Positions 26,856 to 43,062 of a DNA stretch of 64,000 nucleotides are shown one piece after another (the stretch's first letter is position 1; each line of letters starts with the position of its first letter). The stretch covers positions 42,581 through 106,580 of the IMG/VR virus record IMGVR_UViG_3300012344_000014; one strand, given 5' to 3'. The stretch comes from a virus. Taxonomy: Duplodnaviria > Heunggongvirae > Uroviricota > Caudoviricetes. The position numbers were made by a program, and so were the translations under genes. The notes under the pieces were generated by a model that was not told the DNA's origin, did not search any database, and saw only the letters and a list, made by a program, of their open reading frames with translations.

Positions 26856-27064
26856 TCAACAGATACTCCTTTGCTGAGATATTTCATGGCCTGCGCAAAG
26901 TTCATGAGATTGCCGTCCTTGTCTTCGAGGGCGGGGACAACCTGAATGCCTTTTGCCTTCAGCTGCTCCGCATCGGAAACAATATTGCATGGGATCTAAA
27001 GCTGCGCGAGCCGCTCGGCAAGCAGGTCGCACATGGGGCAGCCGGGAAGAGTATAAAGCGTCAT
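26852..27064 (-). CDS. NrdH/glutaredoxin-like redoxin (read through in-frame TAG 26996-26998)
   Basis: AAAGGAG RBS then ATG 27064. MTLYTLPGCPMCDLLAERLAQL-TAG-IPCNIVSD...VVPAL carries a CPxC motif and cis-Pro VP. The TGA overlaps the nrdD ATG (ATGA). Confidence 0.7.
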
Positions 27065-27082
27065 TTCGGAATCAAACTCCTT

Positions 27083-27122
27083 TCATATAATAAAGGGAAC
27101 ATTTTCATGCCCCCTTTTTCAC
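27083..27122 (-). promoter_or_regulatory. conserved intergenic element, copy 1 (candidate phage-specific promoter)
   Basis: The - strand reads TGAAAAAGGGGGCATGAAAATGTTCCCTTTATTATATGAAAGGAG, just upstream of the nrdH-like/nrdD/nrdG operon. Near-identical copies lie at 32556 and 51774. Confidence 0.5.
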
Positions 27123-27628
27123 ATTTGAAAAATTTTATTTTGAATAAGCCACGCGACGCCTACCGCAACCGCATCAGATTCGTCGTCGCAGGCGTAACGC
27201 TGAGGGCCGACATAATCCTCAAGCATCTCGGCCACGCGGTCTTTCTCCGCATTGGCGTCGCCGGTGACGATGCGCTTGGTCATGCGAGGATCGATCTCTT
27301 CAAACTCTCTGCCTGTCAAATGCCAGGCATAAAGATCGGCCACGCCGACAACCTTATGCAAAACCCCGATGGTCTTCATCTGATAGCGGCCGGGGTAAAT
27401 CGCTTTCTCTCGAACCAATATGGCGTCCGGATAAGCGGTCATATATCGCTTCTATTCGCGCGCAATCTCCAGAAGCATCTGGCCATGCGTTTTCTTGCGG
27501 GCATACTTGTTGTTGACATTGCTGAGCTCGCGCACGGTGATCGTATTATTCTCACAATGAAGCAGCGCAAAGCCGGGGCGATGGAGCGAGAGATCGCAGG
27601 CGAAGACATCGACGGCGGTTTCAGGCAC
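27119..27628 (-). CDS. ruvC: RuvC-like Holliday junction resolvase (read through in-frame TAG 27452-27454)
   Basis: GAGGGGA RBS then GTG 27628. The N-terminal half (VDVFACDLSL...LLEIARE) and C-terminal half (YPDAILVRE...TGDANAEKDRV...DESDAVAVGVAW) are in one frame, separated only by TAG. Confidence 0.75.
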
Positions 27629-27977
27629 AGGGCGTCCCCTCGCTTTCACGCGCCAGCTTATCCGTCTCATAGGCGAAGAGCGCGCGGACAATGGCGTGCG
27701 CCAGATGATCATCGCTGATATCGCCGGCAAGATAAGCGTACAGATGTTGGATGCAATGCCCGATATGCTCCTCGGGCGGGATTTTTGTATAGTTACGGCA
27801 GGCGAAGGTTTCGCCGTATTTCTCAGCACCGGCCTTCGCGACTTCAGCCGCGGCAAACATTGCATGCACGGGCAGAAGCTGGAAAGCATAAGGGCTGCGG
27901 CTTTGCTTGCCGCCTTCGCTGTTCACGACGACGGGGACGTCTTTACCGACCCCGAAGATTACATTATCGCCAAGCAT
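27621..27977 (-). CDS. MazG-like / dATP-dGTP diphosphohydrolase N-domain-like protein
   Basis: The pattern AGAEKYGE...EEHIGHCIQHLYAYLAGD..DDHLAHAIVRALF; family recalled from memory. Confidence 0.45.
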   Translation of the reverse strand: MLGDNVIFGVGKDVPVVVNSEGGKQSRSPYAFQLLPVHAMFAAAEVAKAGAEKYGETFACRNYTKIPPEEHIGHCIQHLYAYLAGDISDDHLAHAIVRALFAYETDKLARESEGTPCA

Positions 27978-27986
27978 TTTATCACC

Positions 27987-28709
27987 TCAGAAATCAATAA
28001 AATCATGATACAGAAAACGGGTGCGGGGCGGCACGCGGCGATCAAGATGCCAATGCCCGCAGAACCATTCAGGCTCGAGCGCGGCGGCGTCTACCTCGTC
28101 CATCCAGCGTTCCATGGTATAATCGGGAGGGCCTCCATAAATATTGGGAGCGCATCGATCCCACGGAATCATGCTCTGGGGGCAGGTATGGGAGAGGATA
28201 ACATCGGGGCGATGGACGCGCGCGGTTTCCAGAATAGAATCTCTTTCAGGTTTTGAAAGCTGCTCATCAGGGAACCAGCGATATTGCGGGAACCCCTGCG
28301 CCTGACGCTCGAGCCGGATAAACTTATCGATGCTGTAAGCGCCGCCGATCACCATGACGCTCGTGCCGCTGAAATCATACAGGCCGCCGTCTTTCGCATA
28401 GAGAATATTTGGAAACTCATCCTCGACGAGCACAGGGCCTGAAAGATAAGAACTGACATAGTCTTCCTCGCGGCAGACTTTGCGGCTGGGGCGCTGATCA
28501 TGGTTGCCGCGAACCATAAAGAACGTCAGCGGCAAAGCGGCGAGCTCGGCCTTGAGTTTTCTATCCCGCTTACCGCCAAAGTAATTCACCCCGTTATCGC
28601 CAAGCACAACCATGAGATCTCCGCCGGCGTCTTTGCCGACGTCGTGAGACTCGCAGAAGAGTTCGACGGAACTATAATCGCCGTGTTTATCGCCGGTAAG
28701 CCAGATCAT
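27987..28709 (-). CDS. metallophosphoesterase (calcineurin-like)
   Basis: Motifs LTGDKHGD, VLGDNG and VRGNHD. AAAGGAG RBS before ATG 28709. Confidence 0.8.
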   Translation of the reverse strand: MIWLTGDKHGDYSSVELFCESHDVGKDAGGDLMVVLGDNGVNYFGGKRDRKLKAELAALPLTFFMVRGNHDQRPSRKVCREEDYVSSYLSGPVLVEDEFPNILYAKDGGLYDFSGTSVMVIGGAYSIDKFIRLERQAQGFPQYRWFPDEQLSKPERDSILETARVHRPDVILSHTCPQSMIPWDRCAPNIYGGPPDYTMERWMDEVDAAALEPEWFCGHWHLDRRVPPRTRFLYHDFIDF

Positions 28710-41861: not shown

Positions 41862-41885
41862 GATGTATTCCTTTCTTGATTGATG

Positions 41886-41891
41886 TATAAT
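41886..41891 (+). promoter_or_regulatory. candidate -10 (TATAAT) for the small + strand ORF
   Basis: GATGTATAAT lies in the ligase/PAPS-reductase intergenic region. Confidence 0.3.
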
Positions 41892-41963
41892 TGCGTTATG
41901 CGGCCAGAGGCGAGGGAACCCATTTCGCACGATACGTTGAAGGGAAGGAGGCCACAGCTTCAA

Positions 41964-42122
41964 ATGGAGAAGATAGTAACAATTTAGAACATTATTCTGA
42001 TTGTGCTTCAGCTGATTGCAGCTGCGTTCGAGTTGGCTAAACCACAGGACACCGCTGTGACCATCCATGTTGAGGGCAATAACAACAACGTTATTGTCAT
42101 TGTCAACACTGGGATGAAGTAA
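41964..42122 (+). CDS. small hydrophobic peptide (52 aa; in-frame TAG 41985-41987)
   Basis: AAGGAGG RBS 13 nt before ATG 41964. MEKIVTI-TAG-NIILIVLQLIAAAFELAK... The GTAACA/TGTTAC hairpin follows. Confidence 0.35.
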
Positions 42123-42201
42123 CAACCGCCAGTGATGACGCGCCGTGTTACTTCTCCGGCGCATAACGCAAAAGGAATTGCGCGCGAATCGCGCAAGGAA
42201 A

Positions 42202-43062
42202 TTACACAGATAAATACCAGGCCATTACCTCTTCAGGCGAAGACCACAGATCGTTCGGCAAACCACGTTCGTCCCGCGCTTTCAACATCCGGTCGAACGC
42301 GCGAAGATACGCTTCTTCATATTTCGGATATCGTTCAAAATCGCGCTGGCGATTTTTTACGGAGCCCATCGGGCAACCGATACAGCCGAGCCGGCCATAG
42401 CCTTCATCATACAGACGGCAATGCGGAACCTGAACCACATCGTTCAGGAAAGACCAGACTTCCTCTGTCGACCAATCGATGATGGGGTTGACGAGCGTTT
42501 TCATGGTACGATAACAAACTTCCACCATACGGCGGGACGAATCGTTATCATCGTTCAGGATGATACCGCCCTTCGAGCCTTCATGGAAATCGATGCCGCG
42601 CGTTAACGCAATCCGTTTCGCCCTTGCGGGCTGCTGGAGGATTTCCACAGAGCCGTGCATGGCGGCGCGGCGAGGGCTTTCCGCCCAGCGGACGCCCGTT
42701 ATTGTAACACGCCCCTACCCGCCGGACTCTTTCAGATCGGCACAGCAATACCGCGCGCTCCGGGACGGCGGCTTGCCAACGGCGGGAATCAAATTCCACA
42801 TGGTGATCGGGTTTCCGGCCGCGTTATACGGGATTTCCCGCGCTACGTCAGGATAATGATCCCGAATGAAACGAACCAGTTCAGGCGGGTCCACGCTTGT
42901 GACGCGATAATGCGCATCAAATTTAACGCCGGCCATTTCGCACAGATGATAAACGCATTGAGAATCTTTGCCGCCGGAGAAGGCGACATAGTACCCCTCT
43001 TCGGGCTCGAAGGTACGCAGCTTCAGGAGCGCCGCGTCGATTTTTCTCTGATCGATCATCAT
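42202..43062 (-). CDS. PAPS-reductase-family (PP-loop) protein (read through in-frame TAG 42715-42717)
   Basis: SGGKDS PP-loop in the N-terminal half (track ORF 42715-43116). CCADLKESGG-TAG-GRVTITGVRWAES continues in the same frame into track ORF 42202-42660. Confidence 0.75.

What the first reader, a model, noticed from the sequence alone, without database searches (positions are those of the whole stretch)
26996..42717. Recoded TAGs also interrupt early replication and nucleotide-metabolism genes, not only late genes
Four - strand early-module genes need TAG read-through to yield full-length products: the NrdH-like redoxin, RuvC, the RemA-like protein and the PAPS-reductase-like protein. 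In the recoded phages I know of, recoded stops are concentrated in late structural and lysis genes and are thought to time the lytic programme. Here TAGs occur in both modules. This implies that suppression must be available early, or that these four genes are expressed late or conditionally.
Basis: partly seen in the sequence, partly recalled or inferred. Interest (0 to 1): 0.55.

Follow-up and report, generated by a model that had tools for sequence, protein, structure and literature searches.

The report
Amber codons read inside early phage genes
Four intact early genes of a 112-kb gut phage each carry one in-frame TAG that must be read as an amino acid, and its relatives do this with their own TAG-reading leucine tRNA placed among the replication genes, which differs from the usual TAG-to-glutamine, late-genes-only picture.

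Summary
The NrdH-like, RuvC, RemA-like and PAPS-reductase-like genes each have exactly one in-frame TAG (26996-98, 27452-54, 31343-45, 42715-17, minus strand) inside a single conserved domain.

These genes are not decayed. The TAGs are kept in every strain-level contig found (17/17, 9/9, 5/5, 4/4). Polymorphism on both sides of them is almost purely synonymous. TAG is almost unused as a terminator.

The main new result comes from relatives, which are Clostridia-associated contigs sharing the same replication-module gene order. They carry many TAGs in primase, PolIII alpha, NrdD, ThyX and others. They encode an 85-nt tRNA-Leu-like suppressor (anticodon CUA) between PolIII alpha and the RemA-like gene. 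Their TAGs align with Leu at 30 of 48 columns, so TAG means Leu there, not Gln. The RemA TAG sits at the same alignment column in five relatives.

In this phage TAG is sparse, about 20 sites. They also occur in two HicA toxin genes, in small membrane-protein genes, and at codons 15-33 of late genes.

Its own suppressor tRNA was not found in the ~95 kb examined; ~17 kb remain unseen. Its premise that recoding is late-only is overstated.

The parts
26852..27064 (-). Glutaredoxin/NrdH-like gene (70 codons), first gene of the NrdH-NrdD-NrdG operon. In-frame TAG at 26996-26998 (codon 23).
   Evidence: It has a CPMC motif, and uninterrupted homologues upstream of NrdD in L005 and L007-L010 align over residues 1-66; the TAG column holds K or N in them. 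The TAG is kept in 4/4 strain loci. The Pfam Glrx-like hit is weak, 19.9 bits.
27119..27628 (-). RuvC-like Holliday-junction resolvase gene (169 codons). In-frame TAG at 27452-27454 (codon 59).
   Evidence: Pfam RuvC covers profile positions 7-146 of 148 across the TAG. The TAG is kept in 5/5 strain loci, with polymorphic codons 7 synonymous/0 nonsynonymous upstream and 2/1 downstream. Relatives L040-L042 have Ile at this column.
31067..31444 (-). RemA-like (DUF370) regulator gene (125 codons). In-frame TAG at 31343-31345 (codon 34).
   Evidence: Pfam PF04025 matches profile positions 1-73 of 73, E 6e-17, and the alignment to PDB 7bm2 is gapless. The TAG is kept in 17/17 strain loci, with 12 polymorphic codons, all synonymous. 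The same column is TAG in L041, L042, L046, L047 and L057, Tyr in L036 and Ile in Geobacillus RemA.
42202..43062 (-). PAPS-reductase-like gene (286 codons). In-frame TAG at 42715-42717 (codon 116).
   Evidence: Pfam PAPS_reduct covers residues 25-231, E 1e-14. The TAG is kept in 9/9 strain loci. In 25 full-length homologues the column is a variable polar loop: K10, D5, E4, R2, V2, Q, G, N.
19807..20019 (+). HicA-family toxin gene with two in-frame TAGs (19855-19857, 19969-19971). It was not in the finding.
   Evidence: Pfam HicA_toxin matches profile positions 1-58 of 58, E 5e-14. In PDB HicA alignments the second TAG aligns to V, L or F.
21519..21734 (+). Second HicA-family toxin gene with three in-frame TAGs (21630, 21684, 21726).
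   Evidence: Pfam HicA_toxin matches profile positions 1-58 of 58, E 4e-8.
38176..38421 (+). Small two-helix membrane-protein gene. TAG at codon 33 (38272-38274) and a near-terminal TAG (38407-38409).
   Evidence: It has its own ribosome-binding site and start codon. It is a paralogue of 38548-38805, with the TAG at the same codon. Gene callers report only the 32-aa stub.
38548..38805 (+). Paralogous small membrane-protein gene. TAGs at codon 33 (38644-38646) and codon 59 (38722-38724).
   Evidence: The second TAG aligns with Leu of the paralogue (reading).
60045..60326 (+). Third small hydrophobic ORF with TAGs at codons 18 and 59. This gene call is weaker.
   Evidence: ORF scan with a ribosome-binding-site filter. 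There is no homology support.
2630..3811 (+). Late tail-fibre-like gene with a single TAG at codon 29 (2714-2716).
   Evidence: The start is 9 nt after the upstream stop. The TAG is kept in strains L002 and L004.
4548..5759 (+). Late tail-fibre-like gene with a single TAG at codon 24 (4617-4619).
   Evidence: The start is 12 nt after the upstream stop. The TAG is kept in L002 and L004.
8805..9608 (+). Late Gly-rich tail gene with a single TAG at codon 30 (8892-8894).
   Evidence: In-window paralogues at 7677-8765 and 12762-13505 align on both sides of the TAG and hold Q and L at that column (D2).
15174..15488 (+). Holin-like small gene after the endolysin. TAG at codon 15 (15216-15218).
   Evidence: From the gene model only. 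There is no homology support.
15905..17527 (-). Large serine recombinase. TAG at 15920-15922 is followed by four codons and then TGA, so this TAG is probably the real stop.
   Evidence: Pfam DUF4368 profile positions 6-66 of 67 end at residue 533 of the 535 residues that precede the TAG.
32559..32575 (-). One of three exact copies of AATGTTCCCTTTATTAT (the others are at 27087-27103 and 51776-51792). Each lies upstream of a replication or nucleotide-metabolism operon, and the motif is probably a phage promoter.
   Evidence: Three exact matches against 0.11 expected by chance. Repeat family D3.

Best explanation
The four genes are intact. Their single TAG is translated as a sense codon by an amber-suppressor tRNA, most likely a leucine tRNA with anticodon CUA.

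The phage is a ~112-kb temperate phage with SPbeta-type structural genes and Clostridia-associated relatives. In its relatives TAG=Leu runs through the replication module, and the suppressor tRNA gene sits between PolIII alpha and the RemA-like gene, so it can be made as soon as the replication genes are transcribed.

In this phage TAG is almost abandoned as a stop and survives as a sparse codon at about 20 sites. These lie at tolerant positions of accessory early genes, in HicA toxin and small membrane-protein genes, and 15-33 codons into late genes. There it makes full-length product depend on the suppressor.

**Shown:**
- The genes are single domains interrupted by one TAG.
- The TAGs are conserved, and both halves are under purifying selection.
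- Relatives have a tRNA-Leu(CUA) and TAG=Leu.

**Inferred:**
- This phage uses the same kind of tRNA.
- The inserted residue here is Leu.
- The sparse TAGs act as an expression gate.
For: - **Domain continuity across each TAG:**
- **Conservation:** the TAG is kept in every strain-level contig from many samples: RemA 17/17, PAPS 9/9, RuvC 5/5, NrdH 4/4.
- **Purifying selection:** polymorphic codons are RemA 12 synonymous/0 nonsynonymous (6 on each side of the TAG) and RuvC 9/1.
- **TAG as a terminator:** in the standard-code model stops are TAA 37, TGA 37, TAG 3. Two of the three TAGs are the internal RuvC and PAPS ones. Bacterial flanks of integrated relatives use TAG at 2 of 16 stops.
- **Relatives:** L037-L042, L045-L047 and L057 share the gene order and hold 1-7 TAGs in primase-helicase, PolIII alpha, Sak4-type ATPase, SSB, sigma factor, Cas4-like nuclease, ThyX, NrdD, NrdG and RuvC.
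- **Suppressor tRNA in relatives:** an 85-86-nt tRNA with anticodon CUA, a long variable arm and A73 lies between PolIII alpha and the RemA-like gene. Every annotated feature under its phage-database matches is tRNA-Leu.
- **TAG = Leu in relatives:** their TAGs align with Leu in this window's proteins at 30 of 48 distinct columns, and at 26 of 38 well-aligned ones. Background Leu is 7.9%.
- **Shared RemA site:** the RemA TAG column is shared with five relatives.
- **Hydrophobic columns within this phage:** RuvC Ile, RemA Ile, tail paralogue Leu, membrane-protein paralogue Leu, HicA V/L/F, two late genes Leu and Val.
Against: - No tRNA and no Rfam family was found in the window, in its two flanks (about 84 kb of the source contig), or in 10 kb upstream of the tape-measure gene of a 90%-identical strain. 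One further flank, L034, was scanned for tRNAs only.
- The place where relatives carry the tRNA holds an SPFH gene here.
- Two of the four early TAG columns are polar in homologues and never Leu: PAPS is K10/D5/E4 and others, and NrdH is K/N. The inserted residue in this phage is therefore not fixed.
- A relative with similarly sparse TAGs (L055) carries a different, 77-nt tRNA(CUA) upstream of its terminase.
- The gene model is home-made, so the count of about 20 sites is approximate.
- No expression data exist.
Confidence: 0.7

Rival explanations
1. The TAGs are translated, but by a different suppressor that inserts another residue (Gln as in code 15, Lys, or Tyr). One candidate is a 77-nt tRNA(CUA) of the kind seen upstream of the terminase in relative L055, which would be encoded in the unseen ~17 kb.
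For: - L055 has a non-Leu-type tRNA(CUA) and a similarly sparse pattern of about one TAG per late gene.
- The PAPS and NrdH columns are dominated by Lys.
- L036 has Tyr at the RemA column.
- One tail paralogue has Gln.
Against: - Most informative columns in this phage are aliphatic (I, L, V, M, F).
- Gln appears at only 2 of about 12 columns.
- The syntenic relatives that share the RemA TAG use tRNA-Leu(CUA) and TAG=Leu.
Confidence: 0.17
2. There is no dedicated suppressor. The TAGs are leaky terminators, read at low efficiency by near-cognate host tRNAs or by a host or co-resident-phage suppressor. They would act as attenuators that keep these products low.
For: - No tRNA was found in the ~95 kb examined.
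- The literature accepts recoded phages without a detectable suppressor (PMC7886860; PMC13037316).
- The TAGs sit at tolerant positions.
Against: - About 17 kb of the genome is unseen.
- TAG is nearly absent as a terminator, which points to a genome adapted to efficient suppression.
- Structural genes needed in high copy, such as the tail tube, carry a TAG.
- Relatives encode their own suppressor.
Confidence: 0.09
3. The four loci are pseudogenes, or genuinely split genes whose halves act separately or are re-initiated.
For: Standard-code gene callers split them. In some strains a GTG directly follows the RemA TAG.
Against: - There is a single lesion per gene and it is always TAG. No frameshift, TAA or TGA occurs.
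- The lesions are identical in every strain contig found.
- Polymorphism is 21 synonymous to 1 nonsynonymous across both halves.
- The same TAG column occurs in RemA homologues only 26-42% identical.
- The breaks fall inside compact single domains.
Confidence: 0.03
4. TAG encodes pyrrolysine, which is the label ARAGORN gives the relatives' tRNA.
For: ARAGORN prints 'tRNA-Pyl' for any CUA anticodon.
Against: - The tRNA is an 85-nt class II tRNA whose database matches are all tRNA-Leu.
- The TAG columns are Leu.
- No Pyl genes were met in the proteins scanned.
- By established knowledge, tRNA-Pyl has a short variable loop.
Confidence: 0.01

Closest known systems
TAG-recoded gut phages using 'code 15': crAss-like, Lak, Garnet, Amethyst and Topaz clades (Borges et al., bioRxiv 10.1101/2021.08.26.457843; Yutin et al., PMC7886860; Peters et al., PMC9523058)
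   Same: - In-frame TAG occurs in conserved phage genes of a phage whose relatives integrate into hosts that still use TAG as a stop.
- In relatives the suppressor is phage-encoded.
- TAG is depleted as a terminator.
- The integrase is free of internal TAGs.
- Lysis and toxic functions carry TAGs.
   Different: - The amino acid is Leu in the relatives, not Gln.
- In relatives the suppressor sits in the replication module, and core replication genes are the ones seen to be heavily recoded.
- In this phage only about 15-20% of genes carry a TAG, against 26-71% in the described clades. Coding density rises by only about 2 points, so density-based detectors would miss it.
Classical amber-suppressor leucine tRNAs of E. 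coli (tRNA-Leu with anticodon CUA); own knowledge
   Same: A class II tRNA-Leu body with a CUA anticodon. Leucyl-tRNA synthetase does not read the anticodon, so such a tRNA should stay charged with Leu.
   Different: Here the tRNA is a natural, conserved gene of a phage lineage with dozens of dependent codons, not a laboratory mutation.
Genetic codes with TAG=Leu: NCBI tables 16 and 22, green-algal mitochondria; own knowledge
   Same: The same codon-to-amino-acid assignment.
   Different: Those are organelle genomes and are unrelated in origin. In the phage, TAG seems to keep some terminator use (serine recombinase).
Synthetic suppressor-tRNA feed-forward loops that gate leaky genes (PMC7969014, seen)
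   Same: The logic is the same: a regulator or toxic gene carrying an amber codon is made only once the suppressor tRNA is expressed. In relatives the tRNA gene lies 30-40 nt upstream of the TAG-containing RemA-like gene.
   Different: That system is engineered. The natural circuit here is a hypothesis without expression data.

Membership tests
Stop-codon-recoded (alternatively coded) phage, TAG reassigned | In-frame TAG inside conserved domains of otherwise intact genes | tested here: met
   The RuvC, PAPS_reduct, RemA-like and HicA_toxin Pfam domains span the TAGs. NrdH is supported by homologues.
Stop-codon-recoded (alternatively coded) phage, TAG reassigned | Clearly higher coding density when TAG is read as sense (the usual criterion is a gain of 5-10% or more) | tested here: not met
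   Coding density is 84.8% under the standard code and 86.7% with TAG as sense, using my own gene model. Recoding here is too sparse for this criterion.
Stop-codon-recoded (alternatively coded) phage, TAG reassigned | Phage-encoded suppressor tRNA with anticodon CUA | tested here: inconclusive
   None was found in the window, L001, L003, L034 or strain L050. About 17 kb of the genome is unseen. One is present in relatives L037, L038, L041, L042, L046, L047, L055, L057 and L058.
Stop-codon-recoded (alternatively coded) phage, TAG reassigned | TAG not used, or rarely used, as a true terminator | tested here: met
   Among about 75 gene ends only the serine recombinase plausibly ends at TAG, with a TGA four codons later. 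A small membrane-protein gene may do so too. A few candidates lie in flank L001.
Genetic code 15 (TAG = Gln) | TAG columns align with Gln and the suppressor derives from tRNA-Gln | tested here: not met
   In relatives 30 of 48 columns are Leu and 2 are Gln, and the tRNA body is tRNA-Leu-like. In this phage the columns are mostly aliphatic, with Gln at 2 of about 12.
Pyrrolysine decoding | tRNA-Pyl architecture and pyl genes | tested here: not met
   The relatives' tRNA is an 85-nt class II tRNA that matches annotated tRNA-Leu genes. The pyl genes were not searched for systematically.
Decayed or split pseudogenes | Extra frameshifts or stops, relaxed selection, and lesions that vary between strains | tested here: not met
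   There is one TAG per gene, identical in all strain loci, and polymorphism is 21 synonymous to 1 nonsynonymous.
RemA-like / DUF370 (PF04025) | Full-length match to the family profile above the curated cut-off | tested here: met
   61.9 bits against a cut-off of 26, profile positions 1-73 of 73. PDB 7bm2 match at E 1e-9.
NrdH / glutaredoxin-like redoxin | Thioredoxin-fold profile match above the cut-off, and a CxxC motif | tested here: inconclusive
   The CPMC motif is present and the gene lies upstream of NrdD. Pfam Glrx-like gives only 19.9 bits against a cut-off of 26, and only over residues 2-23. Homologues in relatives have the same size and position.
Phages with SPbeta-type structural genes | SPbeta-type structural genes (YonB capsid, YomX, YomU tube), a large serine recombinase, PolIII alpha, and inteins or introns | tested here: met
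   Precomputed Pfam YonB, YomX_C and YomU_Tube hits in flanks of strains and relatives. Serine recombinase. PolIII alpha with an intein. Group-I-intron-like matches. No direct comparison with SPbeta itself was made.

The most novel reading that the evidence does not exclude
A lineage of large temperate phages linked to Clostridia uses a phage genetic code not described in the literature I could search (TAG = Leu, through a phage tRNA-Leu with anticodon CUA). The suppressor gene and a TAG-containing RemA-like regulator immediately downstream form a conserved feed-forward timer. In this phage TAG has been reduced to a sparse, purely regulatory codon. It is placed about 15-33 codons into late genes and inside toxin and membrane-protein genes, so that their translation is licensed only when the suppressor is present.
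Probability: 0.3. Interest if true: 0.78.

Novelty: new variant of a known kind. Interest (0 to 1): 0.6.

Why it matters
**Annotation and detection.**
- Stop-codon recoding in phages is currently modelled as TAG-to-Gln or TGA-to-Trp, mostly in late genes. It is detected by a jump in coding density.
- This lineage breaks all three expectations: leucine is inserted, replication genes are recoded, and this member is too sparsely recoded to trip density-based detectors.
- Standard annotation silently loses or truncates regulators, toxins, a resolvase, a redoxin and the N-termini of tail proteins.

**Evolution of codes.**
- The lineage offers a natural series within one gene order: a standard-code relative, a sparse member and heavily recoded members. 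This can be used to study how a code change spreads or retreats.

**A testable circuit.**
- The data suggest a circuit: suppressor tRNA, then a TAG-gated RemA-like regulator, then TAG-gated toxic and late genes.

**A possible tool.**
- A natural, orthogonal-looking tRNA-Leu(CUA) from Clostridia phages may also be useful for amber suppression in Firmicutes.

Tried and rejected
- **Close phage relatives.** Megablast of 26-44 kb against 50,697 phage records found no match.
- **Suppressor tRNA in this phage.** I looked for a suppressor tRNA or any known RNA family in the window and flanks with ARAGORN and Rfam, and by blastn with the relatives' tRNA. Nothing was found.
- **Walking to the unseen part of the 112-kb contig.**
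  - The tape-measure query found nothing in IMG/VR or JGI.
  - The second metagenome scan gave only 4.2 kb.
  - The tape-measure homologue look-up gave 10 kb upstream in a 90%-identical strain, without a tRNA.
  - The far-end 208-aa gene led to prophage-host junctions instead.
  - The capsid fragment retrieved only more distant relatives.
  - About 17 kb remain unseen.
- **Shared sequence context around the TAGs.** None was found.
- **Recent TAG-to-TTG reversion.** I tested whether Leu codons of this phage at the relatives' TAG columns are TTG. They are CTC, CTT, CTG and CTA, so there is no such signal.
- **The 1.2-kb gene-free gap in strain L050.** It is not an RNA gene for suppression. It gives two group-I-intron-like matches.
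- **An ORF I first took for the RemA-like gene.** The minus-strand ORF at 37460-37993 with a TAG at 37645 is non-coding antisense of a plus-strand PASTA-domain gene.
- **PDB alignments for the PAPS TAG column.** They did not cover the site, so I used 25 library homologues instead.
- **Literature.** Searches found no paper in the held library reporting TAG=Leu in phages. The library is incomplete, so this is not proof of novelty.

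
Full report
**What the window is.**

A codon-usage gene model with only TAA and TGA as stops gives 76 genes.
- Plus-strand late genes occupy 85-15766: tail fibres with collagen-like repeats, an endolysin and a holin-like gene.
- Minus-strand genes run from 15905 to the end. They include a serine recombinase, ClpP, PhoH, SHMT, NrdG, NrdD with an intein, dUTPase, ThyX, an SPFH protein, PolIII alpha with an intein, a PARP-like/macro-domain pair, DNA ligase, a Cas4-like nuclease, two sigma factors, primase-helicase, SSB, a Sak4-type ATPase, a tyrosine recombinase and AbiE-like genes.

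The window is part of a 112,235-bp contig, Logan SRR1747039_750. Borges et al. cite scaffolds with neighbouring accession numbers (SRR1747018, SRR1747048, SRR1747065), so the samples may belong to the same sequencing series.

More than twenty near-identical contigs of 107-119 kb occur in other samples.

Pfam hits on flanking genes of strains and relatives (YonB, YomX, YomU) place it among phages with SPbeta-type structural genes.

Relatives are found integrated next to bacterial genes. Those bacterial flanks use TAG as a stop at 2 of 16 gene ends. The lineage is therefore temperate and its hosts use the standard code.

**The observation.**

Each of the four genes is one frame with one TAG.
- **RuvC.** The Pfam domain spans the TAG.
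- **PAPS-reductase-like.** The Pfam domain spans the TAG.
- **RemA-like.** The gene matches the whole Pfam profile and aligns without gaps to the solved Geobacillus RemA.
- **NrdH-like.** Pfam support is weak, but uninterrupted homologues occupy the same position upstream of NrdD in five related viral contigs.

Coordinates match the finding exactly. Gene callers using the standard code split or drop all four.

**Not decay.**

Across the strain-level loci the TAG is invariant: RemA 17/17, PAPS 9/9, RuvC 5/5, NrdH 4/4.

Where the strains differ, changes are synonymous on both sides of the TAG:
- RemA has 6 synonymous/0 nonsynonymous upstream and 6/0 downstream.
- RuvC has 7/0 upstream and 2/1 downstream.

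No other stop or frameshift occurs in any of them.

In the standard-code model the stops are TAA 37, TGA 37 and TAG 3. Two of those three TAGs are the internal RuvC and PAPS ones. The third ends the serine recombinase, whose last Pfam domain finishes there and which has a TGA four codons later.

**What relatives show.**

A scan of species-representative genomes with the primase-helicase returned contigs binned with Clostridia. An IMG/VR pattern scan returned one more such contig, L057. They share the order Sak4 ATPase, SSB, sigma factor, primase, Cas4-like nuclease, PolIII alpha, RemA-like, ThyX, NrdD, NrdG.

In these relatives the replication genes themselves are full of TAGs: primase-helicase has 1-7, PolIII alpha 1-4, and ThyX, NrdD, NrdG, RuvC, SSB and the ATPase carry them as well.

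Six of them, plus L057, carry an 85-86-nt tRNA with anticodon CUA just downstream of PolIII alpha. In the five that have a RemA-like gene, its start lies 30-40 nt after the tRNA.
- The tRNA folds as a cloverleaf with a 3-bp D stem, a long variable arm and A73.
- Every annotated feature under its phage-database matches is tRNA-Leu.
- Independently, the relatives' TAGs align with Leu in this window's proteins at 30 of 48 distinct columns, and at 26 of 38 well-aligned ones. Background Leu is 7.9%.

So in this lineage TAG means leucine. One relative, L036, has no TAGs and no tRNA.

**A shared site.**

The RemA TAG of this window lies in the same alignment column as a TAG in L041, L042, L046, L047 and L057. 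Those homologues are 26-42% identical to the window protein.

L036 has Tyr at that column and Geobacillus RemA has Ile. Tyr is one base from TAG but two from the Leu codons that lie one step from TAG. This suggests that L036 once had the TAG.

This is the only TAG shared between this phage and the heavily recoded relatives. It sits in the gene directly after their suppressor tRNA.

**How this phage differs.**

- Its core replication genes have ordinary Leu codons where relatives have TAG. These are CTC, CTT, CTG and CTA, never TTG.
- The place where relatives carry the tRNA holds an SPFH gene.
- TAG survives at about 20 sites:
  - the four early genes;
  - two HicA toxin genes whose full Pfam domain spans 2-3 TAGs;
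  - two paralogous small membrane-protein genes with a TAG at codon 33, and a third candidate;
  - single TAGs at codons 15-33 of late genes.
- The late-gene TAGs were checked as follows:
  - Those examined in relatives (the tail tube, the gene next to it, a Dit-like gene, and the gene before the tape measure, whose TAG lies at about codon 122) are conserved in a relative with 76-89% identical proteins.
  - Homology extends upstream of them, so they are not start-codon artefacts.
  - Seven of eight fall within the first 33 codons. This gives P about 6e-6 with a cut-off chosen after seeing the data.

**Which residue here?**

| TAG site | Residues in homologues or paralogues |
|---|---|
| RuvC | Ile |
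| RemA-like | Ile |
| Tail paralogues | Leu, Gln |
| Membrane-protein paralogue | Leu |
| HicA, second TAG | V / L / F |
| Two late genes | Leu, Val |
| PAPS-reductase-like | variable polar loop in 25 homologues: K10, D5, E4, R2, V2, Q, G, N |
| NrdH-like | K / N |

Leucine is the best reading, but it is not proven for this phage. The polar sites look like tolerant positions.

**What is missing.**

No tRNA or Rfam family was found in the window and its two flanks (about 84 kb of the source contig), or in 10 kb upstream of the tape-measure gene in a 90%-identical strain. A 4-kb extension of one flank (L034) was scanned for tRNAs only.

About 17 kb on the terminase and portal side could not be reached with the capped tools. 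A relative with similarly sparse TAGs has a 77-nt tRNA(CUA) 2.5 kb upstream of its terminase. A suppressor in the unseen part is therefore plausible, but it may not be of the Leu type.

**Comparison with the literature.**

- Borges et al. report that recoded stops concentrate in structural and lysis genes. They also state that use in the replication machinery is variable. In their clades 26-71% of genes carry in-frame stops, integrases avoid them, and TAG is taken as Gln.
- Yutin et al. say reassignment is mostly in late genes, note a PolB with many TGAs, and discuss missing suppressors and incipient code change.

TAGs in early genes are therefore not new in kind. I did not find the following in the held library:
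- TAG=Leu in phages;
- a suppressor placed inside the replication module with heavy recoding of core replication genes;
- a conserved TAG in a RemA-like regulator next to the suppressor;
- a member so sparsely recoded that coding density changes by only 2 points.

The library is incomplete, so the novelty claim is provisional.

**Verdict.**

- The most likely mechanism is tRNA-mediated amber suppression available from the early phase, probably inserting leucine. The few remaining TAGs would act as a licence for accessory, toxic and late products.
- This is a new variant of a known phenomenon.

Noticed in passing
window 19807-20019 and 21519-21734 (+): Two HicA-family toxin genes on the plus strand, embedded in the minus-strand early region. 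They carry 2 and 3 in-frame TAGs. No HicB partner was looked for.
   Followed up: partly
window 38176-38421, 38548-38805 and 60045-60326 (+); strain L050 1264-1362 and 3449-3547: Small hydrophobic two-helix protein genes with a TAG at codon 33, each with its own promoter-like sequence and ribosome-binding site. Gene callers report only 32-aa stubs. The same stub length recurs at two unrelated late genes.
   Followed up: partly
window 2714, 4617, 8892, 15216; L003 5298; L050 about 1360 and about 3545: The single TAGs of late genes cluster at codons 15-33. They are conserved in a relative with 76-89% identical proteins. This suggests a translational gate close to the start of the reading frame.
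   Followed up: partly
window 27087-27103, 32559-32575, 51776-51792 (-): The exact 17-mer AATGTTCCCTTTATTAT lies within a ~70-nt conserved stretch, three times (0.11 expected by chance). Each copy is upstream of a replication or nucleotide-metabolism operon. It is probably a promoter for one of the two phage sigma factors (45086-45688, 49556-50107).
   Followed up: partly
window 24534-26855 and 32578-37089 (-): Inteins in NrdD and in PolIII alpha. Some strains (L025, L033) have an intein-free PolIII alpha of 1058 aa instead of 1503 aa.
   Followed up: no
L050 4030-4283 and 4444-4692: Two full-length but sub-threshold group I intron matches (Rfam RF00028, 36-38 bits against a cut-off of 50) just after the tail-tube gene of a 90%-identical strain. 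The gene may be split into three exons.
   Followed up: no
window 38881-40535 (-): A WGR/PARP-like ADP-ribosyltransferase gene is directly followed by a gene I read as macro-domain-like from its sequence alone; Pfam had no hit on record for it. If the reading holds, the pair may be a writer and eraser of ADP-ribosylation. A PASTA/peptidoglycan-binding gene lies on the opposite strand at 37181-38071.
   Followed up: no
L052 10001-11736; L053 10001-13166: Relatives are integrated in bacterial chromosomes. The junction lies right after a 208-aa HTH gene, beside a disrupted MatE gene in one case and a GH3 gene in the other. So integration sites differ between relatives.
   Followed up: partly
window 15905-17527 and 51844-52740 (-): The phage carries both a large serine recombinase and a tyrosine recombinase. 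One strain contig (JGI, 118,578 bp) ends inside the serine recombinase gene.
   Followed up: no
L055 1461-1537: A 77-nt tRNA with anticodon CUA and an unusual D arm lies 2.5 kb upstream of the terminase of a relative. It has no match in the phage database, and its amino-acid identity is unknown.
   Followed up: partly
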